From positions 352,001-416,000 of the forward strand of contig CAWJKZ010000014.1 of assembly GCA_963843575.1 (NCBI GenBank): DNA of 64,000 nt. The letters are read 5' to 3'. The position numbers and the translations under genes are program-made. The notes under the pieces are model-generated. The model did no database searches. It saw nothing but the letters and a program-made list of their open reading frames with translations, and was not told the origin of the DNA. Shown here in pieces: positions 1 through 38,258 of the stretch (position 1 is its first letter; every line of letters starts with the position of its first letter). Origin of the DNA: an uncultured Acidobacteriota bacterium (GTDB lineage Bacteria > Acidobacteriota > UBA6911).

Positions 1-938
1 CCCCTCCACCCGGCGCATCGATGACAAACTGCGGCACCGCGAACCCGGTGGTGTGGCCGCGCAGCGCCTGCATGATCTGCAGGCCCAGCTCGACGCGGGC
101 CCGGAAGTGGTTGGTGCCGCGCGTCAGGTCCGCCTGGTAGAGATAGTACGGGCGTACCCGCATCATCAGGAGCTTGTGCATCAACTCCTTGATGATCTCC
201 GGGTCGTCGTTGACGCCCTTCATCAGCACGGTCTGGCACCCGACCGGGATGCCCGCGTTCGCGAGCCTCTCGCACGCCTCCCTGGCCTGCGGCGTGACCT
301 CGCGCGGGTGGTTGAAGTGCGTATTGAGGAAAGACCGGGTGGTACTTCTTGAGCATGTTGCAGAGGTTGTCGGTGATCCGGCTCGGCAGCACGCAAGGGA
401 ACCTGGTGCCGATGCGGATGATCTGAACGTGCGGGATCGCCCTCAGGCTGGAGACGACGTGCTCCAGCTTCTGGTCGCTGACCATCAGCGGATCCCCACC
501 CGACAGGAGCACGTCGCGGATCTCCGGGTGAGACCGGATGTAGTCGAGTCCCATCGCGATCGTCTTGTCGGTCACGTCGCTGGCGCGGCCGACCATGCGC
601 TTGCGGGTGCAGAACCGGCAATACATCGGGCAGCGGTCGGTGATGAGCAGCAGAACGCGGTCGGGATAGCGGTGCGTAAGGCGCGGGACGGGGCTGTCCT
701 CGTCCTCGTTGAGGGGATCCTCGAGCGCTTCCTCATCCTGCAGCTCGTTGATCGAGGGGACAGACTGTTTCCAGATCGGGTCCCCCTTGGCCTGGATGAG
801 GTTGTAGTAGTAGCGCGGGATCCGCATCGGATACACCTTGCGCACCTCGTCTATGTCGTCGACGTCGGCGTCGAAATCCTGGTCGACGGTCTCGCCCTTG
901 GTGACGCTGTTTCTCAGATCGAGCATCCATTGTTCCAT
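1..938 (-). CDS. kamA: KamA-family radical SAM lysine 2,3-aminomutase (runs off the left edge; 1-nt indel near 330)
   Basis: Manual translation from ATG at 938: [12 protein letters not shown]...[28 protein letters not shown] (CxxxCxxC)...[11 protein letters not shown]...IRIGTR; after the frameshift NTHFNHPRE...GVND...RPYYLYQAD...[21 protein letters not shown]. Not listed in the ORF track. Confidence 0.92.
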
Positions 939-953
939 GTTCAAAGTAGCTCC

Positions 954-1460
954 TTAACCGGGAAAGTCTTTTGACAAAGATCAGCTTATCGTCGCCGGCG
1001 GCGTAGAAGTCCCGTATCCGCGAGGCTTCCTCATACCCCAGTCGACGATAGAACCCGACGGTGTTGCCGTATGATTCCTTGGATGAAGTCTCGATCACCA
1101 GGAGTCGTCCCCCTTCGCCGTGCACGCGTGCCTCGACGTGGGCGACGAGCGAGCGGCCGAAGCCGAGCCCCTGGACGGCCGGGTGCGTCGCGATCCAGTA
1201 CAGATCGTAGGTGCCGTGCGTCAGCGGCGTCGGCCCCCAGCACGTGTATCCGCGGACCTGTCCGGCACGGTCCACCGCCACGTCCGCCCTGTAATCCTGC
1301 TGAGCGCTGTCCCTGAGATAAATATCGACGAGTTCGAGAGCGCAGGCGATCTCGGCCCTGCTGAAGTTGCCGACCTGCTCGACGATCGTCGGCCACGGCG
1401 CCCCGGTCCCGGGGCACCATCAGGCCGGATGCGTATGGGTGGGTCCGTTTCAGAATGCAT
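954..1460 (-). CDS. GNAT-family N-acetyltransferase (apparent indels near 1400 and 970)
   Basis: ORF 733..1281 contains [35 protein letters not shown] (acetyl-CoA motif Q/RxxGxG) and VGFYRRLGY; start MHSETD at 1460 overlaps the upstream stop; the probable true end is FVKDFPG* at 954. Confidence 0.85.
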
Positions 1461-2489
1461 ACACGGCGGCGGCCACCTTCGTGCCGCGCTCCAGTGCGAA
1501 CTGGGTGATGCGCACGACCATTTCGGCGTAGCTGTAACCGGCGGCGCGCGCCGCCCGAGCAAAGCCGGCCTTCGGCGAGATGTCGGGATTCGGGATTCAC
1601 CTCGAGAACATAGATGTTGCCTCGCGCGTCGGAGCGCATGTCGACGCGGCCGTAGTCGCGGCAGCCGACGCACTGGTAGCTGCGCAGCGCGATGTCCTTG
1701 ATCCGGGTCTCGAGCCGCTTCGACAGATCGGCCGGACAGATCGGCACCGTCCCGATGTACACCGGGCTGTCCTCGTCCCACTTGGCGCGGTAGCTGACGA
1801 TGCGCGGCTCGCCCTCGGGCAGGGTCGAGAAGTCGATCTCGGAAATGGCGAGCACCTCCGGTTCCCGGTCCCCCATGATCGAGACGTTGAACTCCCGCCC
1901 GTCGAGATACTCTTCGACCAGGGCGTCCTGCTTGTAGACGTCGTGGATGTAGGCCACCTGCCGCTCGAGGTGCGCCAGGTCGTAGCAGACCGACCCGGCG
2001 TTGATCCCCAGACTCGCGTCTTCGTGCACGGGTTTGACAATGACGGGGAGCCGCAGCCCGGCTGCGCACCTTCTGACCTGGGGAGTGCAGGTACCCCTTG
2101 GCCGCCGGAAGGCTTGCCGCGCGCAGGATCTGCTTGACGTAGAATTTGTTGAGCGCCAGGCCGAGCGCAAACGGTCCCGATCCGGTGTACGGAATTCCGA
2201 TGAGCTCGAGCAGGCCCGCGACCGACATCTCCAGCTCGGAACGCCCGTTGATCTCCTCGCAGAGGTTGAAGATGAACTTCGGCGCGATGCGGATGATGGT
2301 CTGGACGAGCTCCTTCGAGAAGTGGTCGACCGAAAGCACATAGGGGCTGAAGCCCGACTCGCGCAGGCTCTCTTCAATGGCACCGACCTCTTCGCGCAGG
2401 ATGGTCGACGGGTACACCTTTTCCTGGCACCCTTCCACCTCGGAGATGTTGGCGGCGTTGTAGAGAACCAGGCAGTCGTGTCGTCCCAT
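1450..2489 (-). CDS. D-Ala-D-Ala-ligase-like ATP-grasp protein 2 (indels near 2065 and 1595)
   Basis: Joined from ORFs 1221..2810 and 1031..2383: [58 protein letters not shown](NPDIS); ATG overlaps the upstream TGA (TGATG). Confidence 0.88.
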
Positions 2490-3514
2490 CACCCCATCCC
2501 GTAACGCTTGCAGCCGATGTCCAGAACCGTGTTGATCAGTTGTCCGTAGCTCATCCCCGCAGCGCGGGCCGCCTTCGGGAAACAGGAGTTCTGCTCCGGT
2601 CGCGGGAGTATTCCGGGCAGAGGATTCAGTTCGATAATATGCGGACGGTTCAGAGCATCCAGCCGCACGTCGATGCGGCACCAGTCGCGGCACCTCAGGA
2701 CCCGGTAGGCTTCGAGGCAGATCCGTTCGATCTCTGCCTGCAGTTCGGGGTTCAACTCCGCCGGACATGAGAAGATTTCCAGCGGGTTGTCCGTCTGGTC
2801 CCAGATCCACTTGGCCTCGTAGGAATAAATGGGGTTCACTCCACCCGGCAGGGAATCAAATTTGATCTCCACGATCGGGAGCGCACGTGTTTCGCTGCCG
2901 TTGCCGATGATTGCGATCGTGAACTCACGCCCCGGCAGATACTCCTCGACGAGTGCCGGTTGCCGGTAGGTGTCCAGCAGCCAGGAAACGCGGTCGCGCA
3001 TTTCCTGTCGCGTCCTGGCAAAGGAATTGTCCCGGATCCCTATGCTGGAGCCCTCGTGCAGGGGCTTGACCATGAGCGGGTAGTGCAGGCTGTTGAAAGA
3101 GAAGTTCTTTTCCGCGATCACCCGGAAACGGGCTGTCGGCAGTCCGTGGTAAGCCAGGACTTCCTTGGCGCGCGCCTTGTCCAGGCAGAGGTTCAGCGTC
3201 AGAGGATCGCTGGCCGTGTATGGTATGTCCAGGAATTCGAGGATGGAGGGGATATGCCCTTCACGGCAGGGACCGTGGCTCCCTTCCGCGATGTTGAACA
3301 CGATCGCCGGACGCGAGATCCGGAGCGCTTCGTAGGGGTTGTCCGCCGCATCGATGCGGATGACCTCGTGCCGTTCGCCGAGCGCCACCGCCACCGCATC
3401 GATCGTTTCGGCGTCGTCCCACTCGGCCTGTACGTCGCAGATGCTACTGGGGGGCTCCTGTGCAGCTTCTTCCGTTTCCCCCCTTTTCAAGTTGTACGTC
3501 AGTCCGACTCTCAT
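2489..3514 (-). CDS. D-Ala-D-Ala-ligase-like ATP-grasp protein 1
   Basis: 341-aa ORF with FNIAEG, IPYTASD, DKARAK, VKPLHEGSSIGI, LVEEYLPGREFT, YSYEAKW, CRIDVR, IELNPLPG. Confidence 0.92.
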   Translation of the reverse strand: MRVGLTYNLKRGETEEAAQEPPSSICDVQAEWDDAETIDAVAVALGERHEVIRIDAADNPYEALRISRPAIVFNIAEGSHGPCREGHIPSILEFLDIPYTASDPLTLNLCLDKARAKEVLAYHGLPTARFRVIAEKNFSFNSLHYPLMVKPLHEGSSIGIRDNSFARTRQEMRDRVSWLLDTYRQPALVEEYLPGREFTIAIIGNGSETRALPIVEIKFDSLPGGVNPIYSYEAKWIWDQTDNPLEIFSCPAELNPELQAEIERICLEAYRVLRCRDWCRIDVRLDALNRPHIIELNPLPGILPRPEQNSCFPKAARAAGMSYGQLINTVLDIGCKRYGMG

Positions 3515-3538
3515 CCCACCCTCGCTTTTCGCTCAGTT

Positions 3539-3567
3539 GATATAAGGGAATCGCAATTGCTTGTCAA
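3539..3567 (-). promoter_or_regulatory. Putative sigma70 promoter of the ATP-grasp/GNAT/KamA operon
   Basis: TTGACA-17 nt-TATATC on the minus strand, about 25 nt upstream of the ATG. Confidence 0.55.
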
Positions 3568-3663
3568 GATTTATTTCAACCTTCTGACACAACATGCAGG
3601 GGGCATGGCCTCCCATGGGTACCAAATCTTGTATGGGCAGCTGTCCAAGCAACAAGCATTCCA

Positions 3664-3683
3664 TAATTAGAATATTCTGATTA
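3664..3683. promoter_or_regulatory. AT-rich 20-bp palindrome, candidate transcription-factor operator
   Basis: TAATTAGAATATTCTGATTA, dyad symmetry with one mismatched pair, in a divergent intergenic region. Confidence 0.4.
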
Positions 3684-3773
3684 GTGGCAGTCGGATTCCC
3701 CTTTACCCTCGAGATTTTGCCTCCTCCCGGATCCCTCTATCGGTTATAATGACGCCCTGTTCAGGCCACTACA

Positions 3774-4310
3774 TTGAATATTGGAACTTTGATCTCCGGA
3801 TCCCGGCCCGACACTGCCCGCGCCCGCGCCGCCCTCGGCTTGCTCTGGGGAGGGATTCTCGCCGTCGCCGTGGCTGCCCCCTGGCTCAAGGCCGCCGGTC
3901 ACGGAACCGCGGCTGCGGCCCTGTATCTGCTCACCGCGCCGGTCTGTCATCAGAATCCGGACAGGTCTTTCTCCTGTTGTGGTTACGGCTGGGCCCTCTG
4001 TCATCGCTGCTCGGGCATCTACCTCGGCCTCTGCCTCGGGGCCCTGCTCTCCCCCCGGCTTTCGGGCGTCTGGTACGAGACCCAGTGGCGCAGGGCGTGG
4101 GTGCTCCTGGGACTTATTCCACTGCTGCTGGATGCGTTGCTTCCATTCGTCAACATCTGGGTAAATACACCGGCCAGCCGCGTCCTTTCCGGGCTGGCCT
4201 TCGGTCTGGCGACCGGCACGCTGCTGGTCCCTGCGCTGGCTGAATTGCTGGCAGGGTCTCGCGCTGGTTTGCGCGCGGCTGCCGCTCCGGATCCTCGAGG
4301 AGGCTTCTGA
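3774..4310 (+). CDS. DUF2085-like membrane protein
   Basis: Hydrophobic segments plus CHQNPDRSF...LCHRCSGIYLG motif. Confidence 0.75.
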   Translation: MNIGTLISGSRPDTARARAALGLLWGGILAVAVAAPWLKAAGHGTAAAALYLLTAPVCHQNPDRSFSCCGYGWALCHRCSGIYLGLCLGALLSPRLSGVWYETQWRRAWVLLGLIPLLLDALLPFVNIWVNTPASRVLSGLAFGLATGTLLVPALAELLAGSRAGLRAAAAPDPRGGF

Positions 4311-4948
4311 TGAATCAGGAAGGCATGTTCAAGCCCGCTTTGATAGGCGGGGTTTTGCTGGGCGTCCTCTCCGCGTTACCGGTTGTCAGTGCCCTCAACT
4401 GCCTGTGTTGCGCGTGGGTTATCGCCGGCGGCGTGCTGGCGGCGAACCTCTACGTGAAGTCGGCCCCCCTGCCCGTGACGCTCGGGACGGGCGCCCTGAT
4501 CGGTCTGATTGCCGGTGCGGTCGGGGCCGTGGTTGACACCATCTTTTCCATACCCATGCACCTCCTCCTCACAGGCATGGGATTCGGCGTCGGCCAACTG
4601 CGCGAAGCCATCCAGCAGGTCCCCATGGCCCCCGAAGCCCGCGATACCCTGCTCAAGGTGTTGGGCGGCGGCGGGGTCGGGATCTTCTTCGTGCTTCTTT
4701 CCGGGGTCTTCAAGCTGTTCATCTACAGTATCATGGCGATGATCGGCGGCACGCTCGGGGTGGCGCTATTCGAGAAACGCAAAATCGGCATGCAGCCGCC
4801 GGCAGTGATCCCTCCGGCCTACCAGCCGCCGCCGCGAGCGACCTTGCCCCGCCGCCTCCGCCGCCTCCGCCGGCCGATCTTACTTGAGCCGCCGCCGCAG
4901 ACAGGTTTGCCCCGGCCGGGGAACGTATGCAGGGCAGGCAGCATGTAA
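4310..4948 (+). CDS. Hypothetical multi-pass membrane protein with Pro-rich tail
   Basis: RBS GAGGAGG; TGATG overlap with upstream gene; about 4 TM segments, NCLCC motif; tail probably frameshifted near 4835. Confidence 0.7.
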   Translation: MNQEGMFKPALIGGVLLGVLSALPVVSALNCLCCAWVIAGGVLAANLYVKSAPLPVTLGTGALIGLIAGAVGAVVDTIFSIPMHLLLTGMGFGVGQLREAIQQVPMAPEARDTLLKVLGGGGVGIFFVLLSGVFKLFIYSIMAMIGGTLGVALFEKRKIGMQPPAVIPPAYQPPPRATLPRRLRRLRRPILLEPPPQTGLPRPGNVCRAGSM

Positions 4949-5039
4949 CAGGTAGTGGACTTCCGCCTTCCTTTGGGGACGGCACAGCATGTGTCGCCCC
5001 CTCGGCCTCCTCCCACTTCGGGGCTTCCAGCTTCCGTCT

Positions 5040-5939
5040 CTAGAAAACGGAATTCAGCCCGGGGAGTGGCCGCACGAGATCCTCGGTTTCTATCTGAATG
5101 GTGGTGTGTTCGATGTGATACTTGTCTCTCATGAGGCTGCTCAGCGTCGAGAGCACGGCCCCGGCATCGTTGCCGCGCCGCAGCACGACGTGGCAGCTCA
5201 TGGCAGGCATGTGGGAGGTGATCGACCAGACGTGAAGGTCGTGCACGGAGACGACTCCCTGGACGGAACCGAGATCGGCCAGGATGCTGGGGATGTTCAG
5301 GTGGCGGGGGGTCCCTTCCAGCAGCACGTCGACGCTCTCGTGGACGAGGTTCCACGAGCTGTAAAGTACCAGCAGCGCGACGATGACCGAAATCAGCGGG
5401 TCCGCCAGGTACCACTGCCAGAAAACCATGATGACGCCCGCGAGAATGGCCCCGACCGAGCCGAGGGTGTCCCCCACGACGTGCAGAAACGCCCCCCGGA
5501 TATTCAGGCTCTCGCGCTGCGACCTGTGCAGCAGTGCCGCGGTGGCGAGGTTGGCGCCCAGCCCGAGGGCGGCCACCGTCAGCATCTGGCCGCCCTTGAC
5601 GACAGGCGGGTCCATGAACCGCTCGTAGGCCTCGTAGAAAATGTAGACCGCGATGAGGACGAGCAGGACGCCGTTGGCGAGGGCGGCCAGGATCTCGGCG
5701 CGCACGTAGCCGAAAGTCATCTCGTGGGTCGCGGGCCGCGCCGAAATCTTCAGGGCCAGCAGGCTCATGGCGAGCGCCGCGACGTCGGTCAGCATGTGTG
5801 CGGCGTCGGCGATCAGGGCGAGGCTGTTGGTGTAAAAGCCGGCGACCAGTTCCACCAGGAACCAGCTGCACGTTATTGCCAGCGAGAGCGCAAGCGCCTG
5901 CCTGCCGCTGCGCGGATGGGAATCAGCTTGATCCGTCAT
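5040..5939 (-). CDS. Cation diffusion facilitator (CzcD/ZitB-like Zn/Co/Cd efflux)
   Basis: SLALIADAAHMLTD, TFGYVRAEILAA, GAFLHVVGD, VHDLHVWSIT, HTTIQIE. Confidence 0.93.
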   Translation of the reverse strand: MTDQADSHPRSGRQALALSLAITCSWFLVELVAGFYTNSLALIADAAHMLTDVAALAMSLLALKISARPATHEMTFGYVRAEILAALANGVLLVLIAVYIFYEAYERFMDPPVVKGGQMLTVAALGLGANLATAALLHRSQRESLNIRGAFLHVVGDTLGSVGAILAGVIMVFWQWYLADPLISVIVALLVLYSSWNLVHESVDVLLEGTPRHLNIPSILADLGSVQGVVSVHDLHVWSITSHMPAMSCHVVLRRGNDAGAVLSTLSSLMRDKYHIEHTTIQIETEDLVRPLPGLNSVF

Positions 5940-6053
5940 TGGGACGACTTTGGTGCACAGGGTCACGGCCCGTTGCGGCTGTCCGTGGCCCGAGGGTGAC
6001 TTGCCTGGATACGGGGGAGGGCCGTTGGCTCCTCCCCCGCGCTTGAAGAGAGC

Positions 6054-13873: not shown

Positions 13874-15725
13874 CTACTCGAGGGCCACCCGGGTCGCCTG
13901 CAGCGCCGGCGAAGTACCGGGCAGGGTTTCCTGCCCCTGAAGCCTGCAAAACCGGCTGTACAACCCGTTGGACTCGAGCAGGCCCTCGTGGGTGCCGATC
14001 TCCCTGATGCGCCCCTGGTCGAGCACCACGATCACGTCCGCGTTGCGGATCGTGGAGAGGCGGTGCGCGATAACGAAGGTGGTCCGGTCCTGCATCAGGT
14101 TGACGAGCGCCCGCTGGACCACTTGTTCTGACTCCGAGTCGAGCGACGATGTGGCCTCGTCCAGGATCAGTATCGGCGCGTTGCGCAGCACGGCGCGGGC
14201 GATGGAGAGGCGCTGCCTTTCCCCGCCGGACAACCTCTGGCCGCGCTCGCCGATGACGGTGTCGTACTTCATCGGCAAGGCCATGATGAAATCGTGGGCG
14301 AAGGCCGCCTGTGCCGCCGCGATGATCCGCTCCTCGGACGCGTCGATGTCGCCGTACGCGATGTTGCGGCGCACGGTGTCGTTGAACAGAAACGTGTCCT
14401 GGCTGACGATCGCGATGCTGCGGCGCAGCGACGCCTGGGTATACTCGCGCACGTCCACCCCGTCGACCAGAACGGCTCCGGCGGCGACATCGTAGAAGCG
14501 CGGGATCAAGCTGACGAGCGTCGACTTCCCGGAACCGCTGCTGCCGACCAGGGCGATCACCTGGCGGCGGCGCACCCTCAGGTTGATGTCGTGCAACACC
14601 CGCGTGCCACCGCTCGCGTCGCGGTAGTGGAAATGCACGTCCCTGAACTCGATCGACTCCCTCAGCCCGCGCGAACTCGCGGGCGCCGGGACGGTCCTGG
14701 ATCTCGACGTGCGTGTCGAATACCTCCATGATGCGCGACGCGGAGGCAAACGCGCGCTGGAACTGGATATGCATCCGGCTCAGCTTCCGGATGGGATCGT
14801 ACATCCGGAACAGGGAGAACAGGGAGCCCCCGAACAGCCCGAACGTCAAGGTGCCAGCTTCGATGCGGTGGTGCGCGTAGTAAAGCAGCGGGACGAAGGA
14901 AACGACGCCAAGCAACTCCATGAGCGGCGAGTTCATGAACAGGATGCGGGCCGCCCTCATGTTGCTGCGGAAGAGGGCGGCCGCGGACTGGTGGAATCGC
15001 TCCTTTTCGTGCTCCTCCATGACGAAGGACTTGACCACCCGCACCCCGCTGATCGCCTGCTGCAGCAGGTCGTTGAGCGCCGCGATGTTCTCCCTGCTCC
15101 TGAGACTCACGCGCCGTATGCGGCTCCCCATCGACAGGGTGAGCCCCAGGGCCGCCGGCGCGATCAGCAGCGACACCACCGCCAGCTTCCAGTCGATGTA
15201 CAGCACCCACACCACGAGCGAGGCCAGCAGCACGGTTTCGCGGAACAGTTCCGCCACCGAGGTCGAAACCGCCTCCTGCACCTGCTCGACGTCGCTGCTC
15301 ATCCGCGACATCAGGCGTCCGGTCGAGTTCAGCGCAAAAAATCCCATGGACTGGCGCAGCACGTGATCGTAGAGGTCGTTGCGCACATCCATGACGACGC
15401 CCTGCCCCACGTGGCTCATCCAGTAGTTCGAGTAATACAGCGCGAGACCCTTTAGAAGCGTCAGACCGACGAGCGCGAGCGACAGCTGCGTGAGTTTCGA
15501 TCCGGGGAGCAGCGAGAGACTCCGGCGCAGCAGCTCGAGCTTCCCCGATGCCACGGCGGGCGCGGCGGCACCAGCGCTGGGGATGAGCACTTCGTCGAAC
15601 ATGGGGATGGCGAGCGCCGTCGTGAGGACTTCGAACAGACCCGCAAAAACAAGCAGGATCAGCGACGCGGTCAGGAGCGAAAGGTACGGCCGGACGAATG
15701 GGAACAGCCTGCGGAAGTCGTTCAT
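13874..15725 (-). CDS. msbA: MsbA-like ABC exporter (TM domain + ATPase; indel near 14660)
   Basis: TM domain in ORF 13851..15725 (TGRLMSRMSSD); NBD in ORF 13874..14749 (GSSGSGKST, LSGGERQR, ILDEATSSLD, IAHRLST). Confidence 0.85.
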
Positions 15726-30239: not shown

Positions 30240-31782
30240 TCATCGGCCCCTCTGCTGCCTGCTTCGGAGCCCGAGACAGCGGAACCACAACAAAATAGAA
30301 ATGATAGCACAGACGATGCAGAACCAGTCGCCGTATCGGGTGTAAACCGTCCGGGTGGAAATGAACGCAAATCTGCCGATACAGACATCCTCCTTCAGCA
30401 GTGCGGTGGCGGTCTGAATCCGGCCGGTCGGTTCGATGACGGCCGAGATCCCCGAATTGGCGGCGCGCAAGAGGTAGCGCCGGTTCTCGAGCGCTCGCCA
30501 TCGGGCAATCTCCAGGTGCTGGTACGGAGCGGCCGTGGCCCCATACCAGCCGTCGTTGGTCAGGTTGAGGAACAGCTCGCTCCCCCGACACGCGAAGTCC
30601 CGCGAGACCTCGGGAAAGACTGCCTCGAAGCAGATTATGGCGCTCGCCAGGTGCCCGTCCAACCGCGCCGTGACGTATTCGGTGCCGGGGTGGAAGTCGC
30701 TCACATCCTTTGTGATCGACTCGGCGAAGAACAACAGGCGCCTCAGCGGCACGTATTCTCCAAAGGGGACCAGGTGGAGCTTATCGTAGCGCGCCACTTC
30801 CCTGCCGTGCCGGTCAAGAAAATAGGCACTGTTGTAATAGCGGCGGCTCGGCCCGTCGGCGGACTGGGCGATGTTGTTGAACACGACCCCGAGCGGGAAG
30901 CGGCGCGCCAGTTCCTGCATCGAGGCGCGGTAGTCCGCGTCGTACTGGAAGGTCAGGGGCGACGGCGACTCCGGTAGGACGAGGAGGTCGACGCCCGCGG
31001 GCAGCGCCGCCGCCATCCGGGGATACTCGTGCAGGAATTTCGACGCCAGCGCCTCCCCGGTCTCGTCCAACGACAGGTTCGCCTGCAGCAACGCGGCCCG
31101 GCGGTCCGGCTTGACTTCGTCCCACCGCCGGATCGCCCGCCCGCCGTACAGCAGCGCAGCCGCGCAGAGAGCGGCCGTGACAACGGACGGCCACAGGGCG
31201 GCGAAAGAGCGCAGCCTGCGGCGGTAGATCCACAGCCGGCACAGGGCCGTGTTCGAGGCGGCGACCAGGAAGGAGACGCCGTAGACCCCGGTCAAGTCGG
31301 CGATCTGTATCATCCGCGGATAGTCCGTCTGTGAATACCCGGTCAGCAGCCACGGGAAGCCGCCGAAGAAGTATGTAATTGCTGGCATACTCCAGCGCGA
31401 CCCAGACGCACGGGAAGGCGAGCAGCCAACGCTCGCCGTCACGAGCCATCATCGAGCGCAGCAAGGCGCACGCAGCGGTGGGGAACGACGCCTGCATGAC
31501 GACGAGCAAGCCGAACAGCACCCAGGACAACGCGACCGGGATTCCCGCCGTAGCGGGCCAGGACAGGCGGGATCCAGATGCAGCACGGCAAGGTGCCGCA
31601 CGGCGCCGGCCATCAGACCGCAGACAGCGGCGTCGCGGATGCTGCGGCGACCGCACCACTGCCAGCAGCAGCGGCCCAAACGCGAGCCAGGCCAGATAGC
31701 CCTGGTCGACGCGAGGAAAAGACGCGAACTGAAGAATGCCGGAGAGAGCCGGCAGCAGGAATAATCGTGCGGTCGGAGACAC
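30240..31782 (-). CDS. lnt: Apolipoprotein N-acyltransferase (several indels at 31370-31640)
   Basis: GFPWLLTGYSQ, GVYGVSF, LPES, YYNSA, YDKLHLVPFGEYVP, ICFEAVFP, NLTNDGWYG, RAANSGIS. Confidence 0.93.
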
Positions 31783-33246: not shown

Positions 33247-34552
33247 TTATTTCAACTCCTCTACCTCGAGGGTCAGATCCTGAACGGCCTTGACCCTGAC
33301 CCGCGCGCCGGGCGGGATCGGCGTCCGGGCCTGCGCGGTCCAGTACTCGCCCCTCACCTTGACCCGCCCGGATCCATGGATCTCCGTGTCGGCGATCCCG
33401 ACGAGCCCGATCATCCCGGATGCACCCGTAGTGACGCGCTGCCGCAGCGACTTCACCACGGCCACCAGCAGCAGGATGAAAATCAGCGCGAACGGCACCG
33501 CAACCGACACCGCGGTCCCCAGGCCGATGCGAACCGCCGGGTCCGGAGTGTCGACCAGGATCAACATTCCTATTATCATGGCGACCAACGCCCCCAAAGC
33601 CGAGCACCCCGAACCCCTGGACCTTGACCTCCGCGACAAATAGCCCGACGGCGAGCAGGATCAGCAGCACACCCACGTAGTTGATCGGAAGGAACGAAAA
33701 GCCCAGGATGGACACGAGCAGGCAGATCCCGCCAACCACACCGGGCGCGACGAAACCGGGATGGGTGAACTCGAAATAGAGCAGGATCAGGCCGGCCACG
33801 CCCAGCAGCAACGCCAGGTTGGGCTGAGCCACGGTAGACAGGAACTTCTGGCGCGACGACATCGGGTAGTCCACCACTTCCTGGCCGCGGGTGGACAAGG
33901 AGCGTTCCTCCCCGGAAAAAAGGTGGACTTTGTAGCCCTCGAGCCTCTGGAGCAGCTCTCCCTCATCGCGCGCCACCAGATCGATCAGGCGAAGGTCCAG
34001 AGCCTCGGCCTCCGTGAAGGACTTGCTGTCGGTGACACCCTTCTCGGCCTCCGCCACGTTCCGGTTGCGCTTCGACGCGATGCTCCGGAGGAAAGCCGTG
34101 GCGTTGCTCGTGATTTTTTCCGTGAGCGTCTTGCCCGCCTCCCCGCCGCTGACCGGGAAACCGCCGATCGCCATGAGCGGGTGAGCCGCCCCGGTGTTGG
34201 TCCCGGGGGCCATGGCCGCCACGTCGGCCGCCAGCAGTATGAAAAAACCGGCCGAGGCGGCCTTGGCCCCGCTCGGCGTCACGTACACGACGACCGGGAC
34301 CGTGCTGCCCAGCATCTTCGTGATGATGTCCTCCATCGATCCGGCAAACCCGCCGGGGGTCTGCAGCCGGATCAACAGCAGTTCGGCCCGTTCCGATTGC
34401 GCCCGGTCGATGGCCCCCACGACAAACTCTGCACTGATGGGATCGATGGCGCCGTTCAGGTCGATGCGCGCGATCTTACCCCATGCGCCGCGGGTGCATC
34501 CGCCGGCGAGAACCAACAGAGACGCTACGCAGAGGCGCGCTAGGGAGGACAT
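33247..34552 (-). CDS. NfeD-family membrane-bound ClpP-class protease (indel near 33590)
   Basis: LQTPGG, GAKAASAG, MAPGTNTGAAHP, EK..N, TM region, C-terminal OB domain G.VKVRGEYW.A in ORF 33247..33639. Confidence 0.92.
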
Positions 34553-36704: not shown

Positions 36705-38258
36705 TTATGCGCCCGCACCCTCCGCGCGTTCCTGATGCTCCGCCAGCGCCGCCTGATAATGCGCCATCTTATTGAGGCATTAAGATATGCTCGCGCGCTC
36801 GCGTCCACGATATCGGTGCTGGCCGCCTTGCCGATAAACGAGACCTTCCCAAAATCGACGCGCATGAAGACCTCGCCCACGGCGTCCTTGCCGCGGGTGA
36901 CGCTGTGGACGCTGTACTCCATCAGCCTCCCGGCAATCCCCGTAACCCGGTCGATTGCCTTCAGGGCGGCATCCACCGGTCCGTCACCGATGGACGAGTC
37001 CCGCAGCTGCTGCCCCTCCTTCTCCAGCACGACCGTGGCCGTGGCGATGATCTGATTGCCACCGCTGGATTGGATGTACTTGAGCCTGTAGAGCTCAGGG
37101 ATAACCCGCAGACCGTCGCGGACGATGACGACCAGGTCCTCGTCGTACACCTCTTTCTTCTTGTCGGCGACTTTCTTGAAAAGCGTGTAGGCCTTCTCCA
37201 GTTCCGGCTGGGTCAACTCGAAACCGAGATCCTTGTACTTGAGCTTCAGGGCGTGGCGCCCCGAATGCTTACCCATCACCAGCTTGTTGTCCTTGATGCC
37301 AACGGTCTCCGGCTTCATGATCTCGTAGGTCGACTTATCCTTCAGAACGCCGTCCTGGTGGATTCCGGCCTCGTGCGCAAAGGCATTCCGCCCAACTACT
37401 GCCTTGTTGGCTTGCACGATCAGCCCAGTCAGATTCGTCAGCAGGCGGCTCGAGGGGTACAGCTCCTGGGTGGCAATTTCCGTCCCCGCCTGGAAAAAAT
37501 TCCTGCGCGTGTGCAGCGCCATCACGATCTCTTCCAGCGACGCGTTGCCTGCGCGCTCGCCGATGCCGTTGATCGTGCACTCGACCTGCCGGACGCCGTT
37601 CTGGATCGCCACGAGCGAATTGGCCACCGCCAGGCCCAGGTCGTTGTGACAGTGCACCGACAGGACAGTCTTCCCGATGTTCGGCACGTGCGAGCGCAGG
37701 TATCGGATCGTCTCCGCGAATTCCGACGGAATCGGCGTAGCCGACCGTGTCCGGGATATTGACGACGCCTGCCCCCGCCTCGATCACCGCCTCTACAACC
37801 TGGCAGAGATAGTCGAGGTCGCTGCGCGAGGCATCCTCGGCCGAGAACTCGACGTCGGGGCAAAGCGATTTTGCATAGAGCACCGCCTGCCGGGCGTCCT
37901 CGAGCACCTGCTCCCGGGTTTTCTTCAACTTATGCTTCAGATGTATGTCAGATGTTGCGATAAATGTGTGAATTCTTGGTTTTGCTGCGTGCCGGACCGC
38001 ATCCCAGCAGCGGTCGATGTCGAGTTTGCTGGCACGCGCCAGGCCTGCGATGGTGACACTTCGGATCTCCTCCGCAACCCGCTTCACGGATTCGAAGTCG
38101 CCATCGGATGAGATGGGAAAGCCGGCCTCGATGACGTCGACCCGCAGCTTCTCGAGTTGCCGGGCGAGTATCAGCTTCTCCTCGATATCCATGCTTGCGC
38201 CTGGAGACTGCTCGCCGTCTCGCAACGTGGTGTCAAATACATATATGCGGTCTGTCAT
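36705..38258 (-). CDS. leuA: 2-isopropylmalate synthase (indels near 37735 and 36775)
   Basis: [70 protein letters not shown], regulatory domain GDGPVDA. Confidence 0.95.

What the first reader, a model, noticed from the sequence alone, without database searches (positions are those of the whole stretch)
1..3514. Candidate beta-lysine small-molecule pathway: two Ddl-like ATP-grasp ligases + GNAT + lysine 2,3-aminomutase
Seen: four tightly coupled genes (TGATG overlap at 2489, overlap at 1450-1460, about 15-nt gap to kamA) behind a promoter with a perfect -35. The aminomutase has CxxxCxxC and the acidic residues in YQAD and VIDAPGGG. Established: these acidic residues mark lysine-type rather than glutamate-type 2,3-aminomutases, and aminomutase + GNAT (AblA/AblB) makes the osmolyte N-epsilon-acetyl-beta-lysine. 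No ATP-grasp ligase is needed for that pathway, for lysine fermentation or for EF-P modification, and no efp, epmA, kamD/E or mur genes are nearby in the window. Inference: the operon makes beta-lysine, ligates it in one or two ATP-dependent amide-forming steps and acylates it, giving a beta-lysyl peptide, polyamine conjugate or cell-wall modifier. I recall similar gene quartets in other bacteria but know of no defined product. The operon may continue beyond the left edge.
Basis: partly seen in the sequence, partly recalled or inferred. Interest (0 to 1): 0.78.

Follow-up and report, generated by a model that had tools for sequence, protein, structure and literature searches.

The report
Conserved beta-lysine ligase cassette, frameshifted copy
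A four-gene cassette (a lysine 2,3-aminomutase, two relatives of D-alanine ligase and a small acetyltransferase) is conserved across several bacterial phyla with no known product, and this copy carries six single-base insertions that look like sequencing errors.

Summary
The four genes lie on the minus strand of 2-3514 in the stated order, with the stated junctions and a TTGACA -35. The second ligase (G2), the acetyltransferase (G3) and the aminomutase (G4) are broken by six +1 insertions at about 2055, 1595, 1422, 1387, 966 and 332. They are probably assembly errors: the broken genes show 0 private changes at 395 otherwise conserved sites, and at least three unrelated genes elsewhere in the window are split the same way.

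The cassette is real and widespread. Of 80 related loci, 66 carry the full quartet in this order, across Acidobacteriota, Ignavibacteriota/Bacteroidota, Chlorobiota, Kryptoniota and Desulfuromonadales. Natural fusions join G1 to the aminomutase, G1 to G2, and G2 to the acetyltransferase. The aminomutase keeps every lysine-binding residue. Both ligases keep the ATP-grasp catalytic set but fail the Ddl cut-offs. The acetyltransferase is not AblB; its nearest solved relative is PDB 2R7H, of unknown function.

Best reading: L-lysine is converted to beta-lysine, joined by one or two ATP-dependent amide bonds, and N-capped into a small molecule. Only the beta-lysine step rests on specific residue evidence. 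Ten literature searches found no description.

The parts
3562..3567 (-). -35 hexamer TTGACA of the cassette promoter. A -10-like TATATC lies at 3544-3539 after a 17-nt spacer.
   Evidence: Read from the sequence. TTGACA is invariant in 8 of 8 acidobacterial loci. The tool's consensus scan reported 0 promoter-like sites.
3589..3632 (-). Conserved inverted repeat upstream of the -35: ACAAGAT (3632-3626) and ATGTTGT (3595-3589; ATCTTGT in six of the eight loci aligned). It may be a regulator binding site.
   Evidence: Invariant columns in alignment A4 of 8 loci. Not followed up.
2489..3514 (-). G1, a Ddl-like ATP-grasp ligase of 341 aa. It is the only intact ORF of the four.
   Evidence: Pfam Dala_Dala_lig_C scores 2.8e-36. 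The best Ddl model scores 201 bits against a 243-bit cut-off.
1450..2489 (-). G2, a second Ddl-like ATP-grasp ligase and paralogue of G1. It is read in three frames because of +1 insertions near 2055 and 1595.
954..1460 (-). G3, a small GNAT acetyltransferase (homologues mostly 155-205 aa). It carries +1 insertions near 1422, 1387 and 966, and the TAA stop at 956-954 is in frame only after the third.
2..938 (-). G4, a KamA-type lysine 2,3-aminomutase, codons 1 to about 312 of about 361. It carries a +1 insertion near 332, and its 3' end lies beyond the window.
2052..2057 (-). Insertion site 1: an extra T in GGGC[T]GCGG.
   Evidence: Comparison with L001 and four other loci, by eye. Frame arithmetic.
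1593..1597 (-). Insertion site 2: GTGAA[T]CCCG.
1420..1424 (-). Insertion site 3: CCGGCC[T]GATGG.
1385..1389 (-). Insertion site 4: GCCGAC[G]ATCG.
964..968 (-). Insertion site 5: AAAAGA[C]TTTCCC. It removes the in-frame stop of G3.
330..334 (-). Insertion site 6: GGTC[T]TTCCTC.
   Evidence: NCBIfam AblA model positions 8-219 and 220-328 fall in different frames.

Best explanation
This is one copy of a widespread, self-contained four-gene cassette.

1. G4 (KamA type; radical SAM and PLP) converts free L-lysine to beta-lysine. This step is well supported by sequence.
2. G1, a diverged D-Ala-D-Ala-ligase paralogue, uses ATP to form an amide bond that involves beta-lysine. This is inferred from the minimal kamA+G1 pairs and from G1-KamA fusion proteins.
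3. G2, an old paralogue of G1 that probably pairs with it as a Ddl-like heterodimer, adds a second amide bond. G3, a GNAT that is often fused to G2, caps a free amino group with an acyl group. This is inferred.

The product would be a small N-acylated beta-lysine di- or tri-(pseudo)peptide or amine conjugate. [quoted passage not shown] Its identity and role are unknown.

The six +1 frameshifts in this window are most likely assembly or sequencing errors, not gene decay.
For: Synteny:
- 65 of 80 loci have the order G1-G2-G3-G4. One more has it with G1 split in two pieces.
- 3 of 80 are cut by contig ends but are consistent with the order.
- 3 of 80 lack or have only a remnant of the GNAT.
- 6 of 80 (labelled Nitrospinota) have kamA-G1 only, and 1 has kamA-G1-G2.
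- Flanking genes are unrelated housekeeping genes that differ by lineage: recG and dnaG, or priA, kdsA, kdsB and pyrG.

Fusions:
- One search examined 12 of the 120 long G1 relatives listed. P0123 and P0124 are G1+KamA. P0121 and P0122 are G1+G2-like.
- 30 of 34 long relatives of G3 are G2-like ATP-grasp plus GNAT.

Aminomutase:
- 405 bits to 2A5H.
- The CxxxCxxC cysteines and the equivalents of R134, D293, D330 and K337 are invariant in 65 of 65 sequences.

Ligases:
- K144, R255, D257, E270 and N272 equivalents are kept in both G1 and G2. K215 is kept in both. E15, S150 and S281 equivalents are kept in G1.
- G1 and G2 form two groups separated by a branch with 100% SH-aLRT support, and the same lineages recur in each group.

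Predicted G1-G2 complex:
- Score 0.72, best of 3 controls 0.00. That mark was reached by 116 of 157 solved complexes and 2 of 215 mismatched pairs.
- Runs agree in at least 75% of contacts, and partner pLDDT is at least 84.
- Ddl homodimers are solved, so the pass may only reflect that likeness.

Frameshifts as errors:
- The window has 0 private changes at 395 invariant-or-one-off sites in G2-G4, against 2 of 183 in the intact G1.
- All detected frame changes in the window are +1. At least three clean ones lie in unrelated housekeeping genes: lnt, nfeD and a leuA-like gene.
- L001 has two different insertions of its own in G2.
- In 65 of 80 loci all four genes read through without a break.
Against: - No experiment or structure links either ligase to beta-lysine, and the second substrate is unknown.
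- One locus (L076) has G1-G2 without kamA, next to a pyruvoyl arginine decarboxylase and an agmatinase. Beta-lysine is therefore not the obligatory partner everywhere, or kamA lies elsewhere in that genome.
- G3 and G2 are dispensable in some lineages, so the product may differ between them.
- The full-length aminomutase homologue scores 489.8 bits, below the AblA equivalog cut-off of 525.4, and lacks the C-terminal part of clostridial LAM.
- Six of the ten frameshifts fall within the first 2.1 kb of the window. The chance of that under a uniform rate is 2e-7. This clustering is unexplained and would also fit very recent inactivation of G2-G4.
- Several insertions are not in homopolymer runs.
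- The fusion proteins come from metagenome gene calls, and some could be read-through artefacts.
Confidence: 0.55

Rival explanations
1. The cassette is genuinely being lost in this organism. G2, G3 and G4 are young pseudogenes and only G1 is still functional.
For: Six frame-breaking insertions lie within 332-2055 while G1 and the next 12 kb are intact. This clustering is far from uniform, with P about 2e-7. Several insertions are not in homopolymers.
Against: - The window has 0 private substitutions at 395 conserved sites of the broken genes, and no nonsense codon in the correct frames.
- All six are +1 insertions. So are the four frame changes elsewhere in the window, at least three of which are in housekeeping genes that should be needed.
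- The nearest relative, L001, has different insertions in the same gene.
- From recall, natural decay in bacteria is biased towards deletions and brings substitutions with it.
Confidence: 0.15
2. The ligases and the GNAT modify a macromolecule with beta-lysine rather than make a free metabolite. The target could be a protein, in the manner of EF-P beta-lysylation or RimK/RimI-type ribosomal protein modification, or a peptidoglycan precursor, in the manner of D-aspartate ligase.
For: - G1 is highly conserved, 55-64% identical between phyla.
- The cassette sits among housekeeping genes.
- The best named matches of the GNAT are RimI-type.
- The ligases are Ddl relatives.
Against: - No efp, epmA or mur gene lies in the window or next to the cassette in any locus examined.
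- The EpmB model scores 246.6 bits against a 369.3-bit cut-off.
- Both ligases keep the compact Ddl architecture, including the Ddl lid (omega-loop) region that carries K215. From recall, that architecture belongs to small-molecule ligases.
- Fusions of the GNAT to a deacetylase-like domain and to a methyltransferase fit small amines better.
Confidence: 0.15
3. [quoted passage not shown] The two ligases do something unrelated, such as ordinary D-Ala-D-Ala synthesis.
For: The best NCBIfam model for G4 is AblA. A GNAT lies directly upstream. The aminomutase-plus-GNAT pair is an established pathway (recalled; cited in PMC9337991 and PMC3543383, passages read).
Against: - G3 gives no match to an AblB model and is about 165 aa and RimI-like.
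- G4 is below the AblA cut-off.
- The GNAT is the dispensable part: it is absent from 3 acidobacterial/ignavibacterial loci and from the 6 kamA-G1 loci.
- G1 is fused to KamA and G2 to the GNAT.
- Both ligases fail every Ddl cut-off and carry W in place of Y216.
Confidence: 0.08

Closest known systems
AblA/AblB pathway for N-epsilon-acetyl-beta-lysine (methanogens, green sulfur bacteria, some Bacillota)
   Same: A KamA-type lysine 2,3-aminomutase is encoded next to a GNAT. AblA is the best-scoring NCBIfam model for G4.
   Different: G3 is a small RimI-like GNAT with no AblB match. G4 is shorter than AblA and below its cut-off. Two ATP-grasp ligases are integral to the cassette: they are fused to KamA and to the GNAT in some lineages.
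D-alanine-D-alanine ligase (DdlB, PDB 2DLN/1IOV) and the Van ligases
   Same: The fold family and the whole ATP/Mg catalytic set are shared. The E15, S150, K215 and S281 equivalents are kept in G1. The predicted G1-G2 dimer uses matching segments of the two chains (about residues 57-125 of each); whether this matches the Ddl dimer was not compared.
   Different: - Scores are 201 and 154 bits against cut-offs of 243-246.
- Y216 is W in both. L282 is C in G1, with a 4-residue insertion before S281. In G2, S150 is A and G276 is D.
- G1 has invariant acidic residues beside the first-substrate site (the AEWD motif, and W-x-W-D after K215).
- There is no mur or ftsQ context.
Ngg/AsnO pathway for N-acetylglutaminylglutamine amide (recalled, not tested here)
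   Same: The logic is shared: a GNAT and an ATP-grasp ligase, fused in one protein, make an N-acetylated dipeptide osmolyte. G2-G3 fusions exist here.
   Different: The ATP-grasp subfamily and domain order differ, there is no amidotransferase, and the amino-acid supply comes from an aminomutase.
PDB 2R7H, a GNAT of unknown function from Desulfovibrio desulfuricans (DDE_3044), deposited as 'putative D-alanine N-acetyltransferase'
   Same: It belongs to the same family as G3. The profile E-value is 1.4e-47 over the whole length. The Foldseek TM-score is 0.88-0.90 at 39% identity.
   Different: No function, ligand or publication was found. A search for its locus tag and its neighbours' tags returned nothing relevant. 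Its gene neighbourhood could not be examined.
EpmB/EpmA beta-lysylation of EF-P
   Same: A short KamA-family aminomutase supplies beta-lysine to an ATP-dependent ligase.
   Different: The EpmB model is far below its cut-off (246.6 against 369.3 bits). The ligases are ATP-grasp enzymes, not aaRS-like. No efp lies nearby.

Membership tests
KamA family radical SAM protein (TIGR00238) | Score above the family cut-off of 199.2 bits | tested here: met
   The full-length homologue L006 scores 318.8 bits. The two window fragments score 196.3 and 113.4 bits in separate frames.
KamA family radical SAM protein (TIGR00238) | CxxxCxxC cluster motif and the PLP lysine (K337 of 2A5H) | tested here: met
   CPMYCRFC is in the window. 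Both features are invariant in 65 of 65 homologues. The PLP lysine of the window's own copy lies just beyond the left edge.
Lysine-specific 2,3-aminomutase | R134 for the carboxylate and D293 and D330 for the epsilon-ammonium group (residue roles recalled from work on 2A5H) | tested here: met
   D293 and D330 are aligned in the window. All three are invariant in 65 of 65 homologues.
AblA equivalog (TIGR03820) | Score above 525.4 bits, with full-length C-terminal homology | tested here: not met
   L006 scores 489.8 bits, L020 468.3 and L034 514.6. The match stops at model position 363-365 of 417.
AblB beta-lysine acetyltransferase | Match to the AblB GNAT model | tested here: not met
   No AblB model was listed for G3, at E up to 0.01 for the window fragment or up to 1e-5 for L006. 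The best match is RimI at 38.7-46.9 bits, below its 86.4-bit cut-off.
D-alanine-D-alanine ligase | Score above the NCBIfam Ddl cut-offs (243 and 245.65 bits) | tested here: not met
   G1 scores 201.1 and 153.3 bits. The intact G2 of L006 scores 154.2 and 135.9 bits.
D-alanine-D-alanine ligase | First-substrate triad E15-S150-Y216 and second-site S281/L282 (residue roles recalled) | tested here: not met
   In G1, E and S are kept, Y216 is W and L282 is C. In G2, S150 is A, Y216 is W and G276 is D.
ATP-grasp ligase, catalytically competent | ATP lysine and the Mg/phosphate ligands (K144, K215, R255, D257, E270, N272 of DdlB) | tested here: met
   These are invariant in 67 G1 sequences and 62 G2 sequences, mapped through the alignments.
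EpmB (EF-P beta-lysylation) | Score above 369.3 bits, with efp or epmA in the neighbourhood | tested here: not met
   The score is 246.6 bits. No EF-P or EpmA-like family was found in the window or in the flanks examined.
GNAT acetyltransferase | GNAT fold with the acyl-CoA motif Q/R-x-x-G-x-G/A | tested here: met
   Pfam Acetyltransf_7 and Acetyltransf_1 match. The QGKGIG motif is conserved. The model has pLDDT 92.6 and matches GNAT structures.

The most novel reading that the evidence does not exclude
A heterodimeric pair of Ddl-derived ligases, fed by a dedicated lysine 2,3-aminomutase, makes a previously undescribed class of beta-lysine-based cationic amides. These would be a peptide 'polyamine' or osmolyte, N-acetylated or in some lineages N-methylated. 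The cassette is common in soil and sediment bacteria of at least five phyla. In some lineages the amine-supplying module has been exchanged for arginine decarboxylase and agmatinase.
Probability: 0.35. Interest if true: 0.75.

Novelty: new variant of a known kind. Interest (0 to 1): 0.6.

Why it matters
Sixty-six of the best 80 loci carry the full quartet. None of the searches made here found a product, a phenotype or a paper. The cassette is annotated only as 'D-alanine-D-alanine ligase', 'GNAT' and 'KamA family'.

If the inference holds, abundant soil groups such as Acidobacteriota and Ignavibacteriota make an unknown beta-lysine metabolite. The D-Ala-D-Ala ligase fold would then have been recruited for a new ligation.

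All four enzymes are soluble and small, and the GNAT family already has a crystal structure. The question can therefore be tested directly by expression and LC-MS.

The case also shows that annotation would fail on this window. Three of the four genes would be called pseudogenes because of probable assembly errors.

Tried and rejected
- **Riboswitch or leader RNA.** Rfam over 1-6000 at E up to 1 gave only a raiA match at 18.8 bits against a gathering score of 101.3. I treat it as chance.
- **Promoter scan.** The tool found 0 promoter-like sites and 2 terminator-like sites, fewer than in shuffles. The promoter claim rests on conservation instead.
  - Searches gave only listings of unrelated papers. 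'Aminomutase' together with 'ATP-grasp' occurs in 3 papers, none on this cassette judging by title and abstract.
  - Searches found 0 papers. The phrase form 'lysine 2 3-aminomutase' appears not to match printed text, so searches are weak.
  - One search listed only taxon co-mentions.
  -, a search for DDE_3044, its neighbours' locus tags and 2R7H, found nothing relevant.
  - led to PMC3543383. The passages read describe only a canonical ablA/ablB pair in Pelobacter.
  - In PMC9337991 (passages read), Na+ riboswitches sit before ablA, not before this cassette.
  - Subscription journals and supplements were not searched.
- **Cluster members.** The cultured carriers of G1 could not be named.
- **Plasmid collection.** 15 records hold G1-like ATP-grasp genes at under 60% identity (31-38% in the rows listed), on rhizobial and other plasmids. 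The two contexts I looked at (an MFS transporter, a dipeptide ABC transporter and an M81 peptidase; CapA and IS elements) are not the cassette.
- **Myxococcota double ATP-grasp proteins.** In these proteins of about 700 aa, both halves resemble G1 at only 32-40% identity. I do not count them as G1-G2 fusions.
- **ESM Atlas.** It returned only 'D-alanine-D-alanine ligase family' clusters.
- **Extra conserved cassette gene.** No gene is conserved immediately up- or downstream across lineages.


Full report
**What is in the window.**
All four genes lie on the minus strand.
- G1 runs 3514..2489 and is an intact 341-aa ORF. It matches Pfam Dala_Dala_lig_C at 2.8e-36.
- Its TGA stop (2491-2489) shares one base with the ATG of G2 (2489-2487).
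- G2 is a second Ddl-like ATP-grasp gene, but its homology runs through three reading frames: 2489-2067, 2059-1589 and 1596-1453. Its stop is at 1452-1450.
- G3 is a GNAT. It starts at ATG 1460, eleven bases before the G2 stop. It changes frame twice near its start and once near its end, so its TAA (956-954) is in frame only after the third shift.
- G4 starts at ATG 938, behind an AAGGAG, 15 nt after that TAA. It is KamA-type. Residues 1-203 are in one frame (938-330) and the next 109 in another (328-2), where the window ends.
- NCBIfam places the two G4 pieces on AblA model positions 8-219 and 220-328, so the break is a clean one-base shift.

**The frameshifts.**
The closest relative found, L001, is 95% identical in G1 protein and 91% identical in DNA. 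Against it, the window has single extra bases near 1595, 1422, 1387, 966 and 332. A sixth extra base, a T near 2055, was found by comparing three-frame translations with L001 and four other loci. Frame arithmetic confirms that every change is +1.

Four observations argue that these are technical errors.
- In the correct frames the window shows 0 private substitutions at 395 sites that are invariant or differ in one sequence only among 16-19 acidobacterial rows. The intact G1 shows 2 of 183. There are no in-frame stops in the correct frames.
- Pfam domains are split across frames elsewhere in the window too. The cases are lnt (about 31.36 kb), nfeD (about 33.59 kb), a leuA-like gene (about 37.72 kb) and probably an ABC exporter (about 14.67 kb). 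All four are also +1.
- L001 carries two different insertions of its own in G2.
- In 65 of the 80 related loci all four genes read through without a break.

Some evidence points the other way. Six of the ten breaks fall in the first 2.1 kb, with P about 2e-7 under a uniform rate. Several insertions are not in homopolymers. I cannot explain that clustering from the window alone. A poorly covered contig end is one possibility and very recent inactivation is another. I put real decay at about 0.15.

**Is the quartet conserved?**
G1 has thousands of close relatives, nearly all about 340 aa long. Of 8000 scored candidates, 7392 have E up to 0.001, and the best 120 are 72-89% identical. The only names sources give them are 'D-alanine-D-alanine ligase' and 'ATP-grasp domain-containing protein'.

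A scan of one genome per species found at least 530 loci that encode a relative. The 80 best were fetched. Gene order in these 80:

| Gene order | Loci | Notes |
|---|---|---|
| G1-G2-G3-G4 | 65 | the full quartet |
| Same, G1 in two pieces | 1 | L054 |
| Cut by a contig end, otherwise consistent | 3 | L008, L010, L047 |
| No GNAT, or only a remnant | 3 | L002, L003, L038 |
| kamA-G1 only | 6 | labelled Nitrospinota |
| kamA-G1-G2 plus an amino-acid permease | 1 | L080 |
| G1-G2 without kamA | 1 | L076 |

In L076, G1-G2 is preceded by an agmatinase and a pyruvoyl arginine decarboxylase, and followed by a methyltransferase and two glycosyltransferases.

The record titles name Acidobacteriota, Ignavibacteriota, Bacteroidota, Chlorobiaceae, Kryptoniota, Desulfuromonadales/Malonomonas, Nitrospinota, Syntrophaceae and others.

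The flanks differ by lineage and are housekeeping genes. They are recG and dnaG in the Ignavibacteriota group, and priA, a CDF transporter, kdsA, kdsB, kdsD and pyrG in Acidobacteriota. The cassette is therefore self-contained.

In L001, kamA ends about 150 nt beyond the window's left edge, and nothing conserved follows it.

**Fusions.**
One search examined 12 of the 120 long relatives of G1 listed.
- P0123 and P0124 join G1 to a KamA domain.
- P0121 and P0122 join G1 to a G2-like domain.
- Seven proteins of about 700 aa, from Myxococcota and unnamed sources, have two G1-like halves at only 32-40% identity. I set these aside.

Of the 34 long relatives of G3, 30 are a G2-like ATP-grasp domain followed by the GNAT. 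Two carry a deacetylase-like PF00850 domain, one carries a methyltransferase and one has an unassigned N-terminal part. These proteins come from metagenome gene calls, so single cases could be read-through artefacts. The 30 diverse G2-G3 cases are unlikely to be.

**The enzymes.**
*G4.* The intact homologue of L006 aligns to the solved Clostridium lysine 2,3-aminomutase 2A5H over 343 residues, at 405 bits. The three cluster cysteines and the equivalents of R134, D293, D330 and K337 are invariant in 65 of 65 cassette aminomutases. The roles of these residues are recalled from published work on 2A5H. The window's own YQAD and VIDAPGGG align to D293 and D330. The protein is shorter than AblA or clostridial LAM and scores 489.8 bits, below the AblA cut-off of 525.4. 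NCBI would therefore call it only a KamA family protein.

*G1 and G2.* Both fail every Ddl cut-off. Both keep K144, K215, R255, D257, E270 and N272 in DdlB numbering, read off the alignment and checked against invariant columns. Both replace Y216 by W. G1 changes L282 to C and has extra loops. G2 changes S150 to A and G276 to D. G1 has invariant acidic residues next to the first-substrate site. That would suit a substrate with a second positive charge, but this is inference only.

A tree separates G1 from G2 by a branch with 100% SH-aLRT support, and the same lineages recur on both sides. The duplication is therefore older than the spread of the cassette. The tree used the quick method and was rooted at the midpoint for drawing only.

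A complex prediction for G1+G2 of L006 passed. The score was 0.72 and the best of 3 controls was 0.00. That mark was reached by 116 of 157 solved complexes and 2 of 215 mismatched pairs. The runs agree in at least 75% of contacts and partner pLDDT is at least 84. Ddl homodimers are solved, so this may show only the family likeness.

*G3.* It folds confidently as a GNAT, with pLDDT 92.6. Its nearest solved relative is 2R7H, a structural-genomics GNAT of unknown function. It does not match AblB.

**Upstream region.**
TTGACA (3567-3562) is invariant in 8 of 8 acidobacterial loci. It is followed after 17 nt by TATATC in the window. Further upstream lies a conserved inverted repeat, ACAAGAT ... ATCTTGT. 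The tool's strict promoter scan found nothing, and no Rfam family matched.

**Interpretation.**
Shown by sequence: a lysine-type 2,3-aminomutase, two catalytically complete non-Ddl ATP-grasp ligases and a GNAT form one conserved, often fused unit.

Inferred:
- beta-lysine is the substrate of G1;
- G2 adds a second amide bond;
- G3 caps an amine;
- the product is a small molecule.

The L076 variant (arginine decarboxylase and agmatinase in place of kamA, a methyltransferase in place of the GNAT) hints that the ligases handle cationic amines and that the last enzyme neutralises an amine. So do the GNAT fusions to a methyltransferase and to a deacetylase-like domain. These hints rest on one locus and three proteins.

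[quoted passage not shown] Both are recalled from the literature. The cassette fails the membership tests for both pathways and for Ddl and EpmB.

**Novelty.**
None of the ten searches of the held library found this gene combination, but subscription journals and supplements were not covered. I rate it a new variant of a known kind. The enzyme families are known, the combination and product are not, and the window's own copy is probably damaged only on paper.

Noticed in passing
window 3589-3632 (minus strand): A conserved inverted repeat, ACAAGAT ... ATCTTGT (ATGTTGT in the window and in L001), lies upstream of the invariant -35. Its arms are about 30 nt apart and it is present in all 8 acidobacterial loci aligned. 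It may be an operator for an unknown regulator.
   Followed up: partly
window about 31333-31388, 33560-33615, 37701-37750, 14637-14713: Pfam domains of lnt, nfeD, a leuA/HMGL-like gene and probably a fused ABC exporter are split between two reading frames. All four shifts are +1, like the six in the cassette.
   Followed up: partly
L001 about 11314 and about 11435: The closest relative, also labelled a MAG, has two single-base insertions of its own in G2, at sites different from the window's.
   Followed up: yes
L076 2812-9990: A Syntrophaceae-labelled locus has, tightly packed, an agmatinase, a pyruvoyl arginine decarboxylase, G1, G2, a methyltransferase and two GT4 glycosyltransferases. It has no kamA and no GNAT.
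   Followed up: partly
proteins P0246, P0272, P0253: G3-type GNATs are fused to a deacetylase-like PF00850 domain (752 and 757 aa) or to a SAM methyltransferase (424 aa).
   Followed up: no
L081 (Rhizobium plasmid) and L082 (pNGR234a): More distant G1-like ATP-grasp genes (31-38% identity) sit on rhizobial symbiosis plasmids. One lies beside an MFS transporter, a dipeptide ABC transporter and an M81 peptidase. The other lies beside a CapA-family gene and IS elements.
   Followed up: partly
window 3774-4948 (plus strand): A DUF2085 membrane protein and a second predicted membrane protein with no Pfam match are transcribed divergently from the cassette. The same stretch of DNA is collinear in L001.
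   Followed up: no
window 956-966 and L001 12546-12556: The window and L001 share GGTTAAGG at the end of G3, where other Acidobacteria have GGTAAGG or a different stop. L001 reads ...KRFPG*, whereas relatives read ...KRLSR* or ...KRFSR*. This suggests an older compensated shift at the C-terminus in this lineage.
   Followed up: partly
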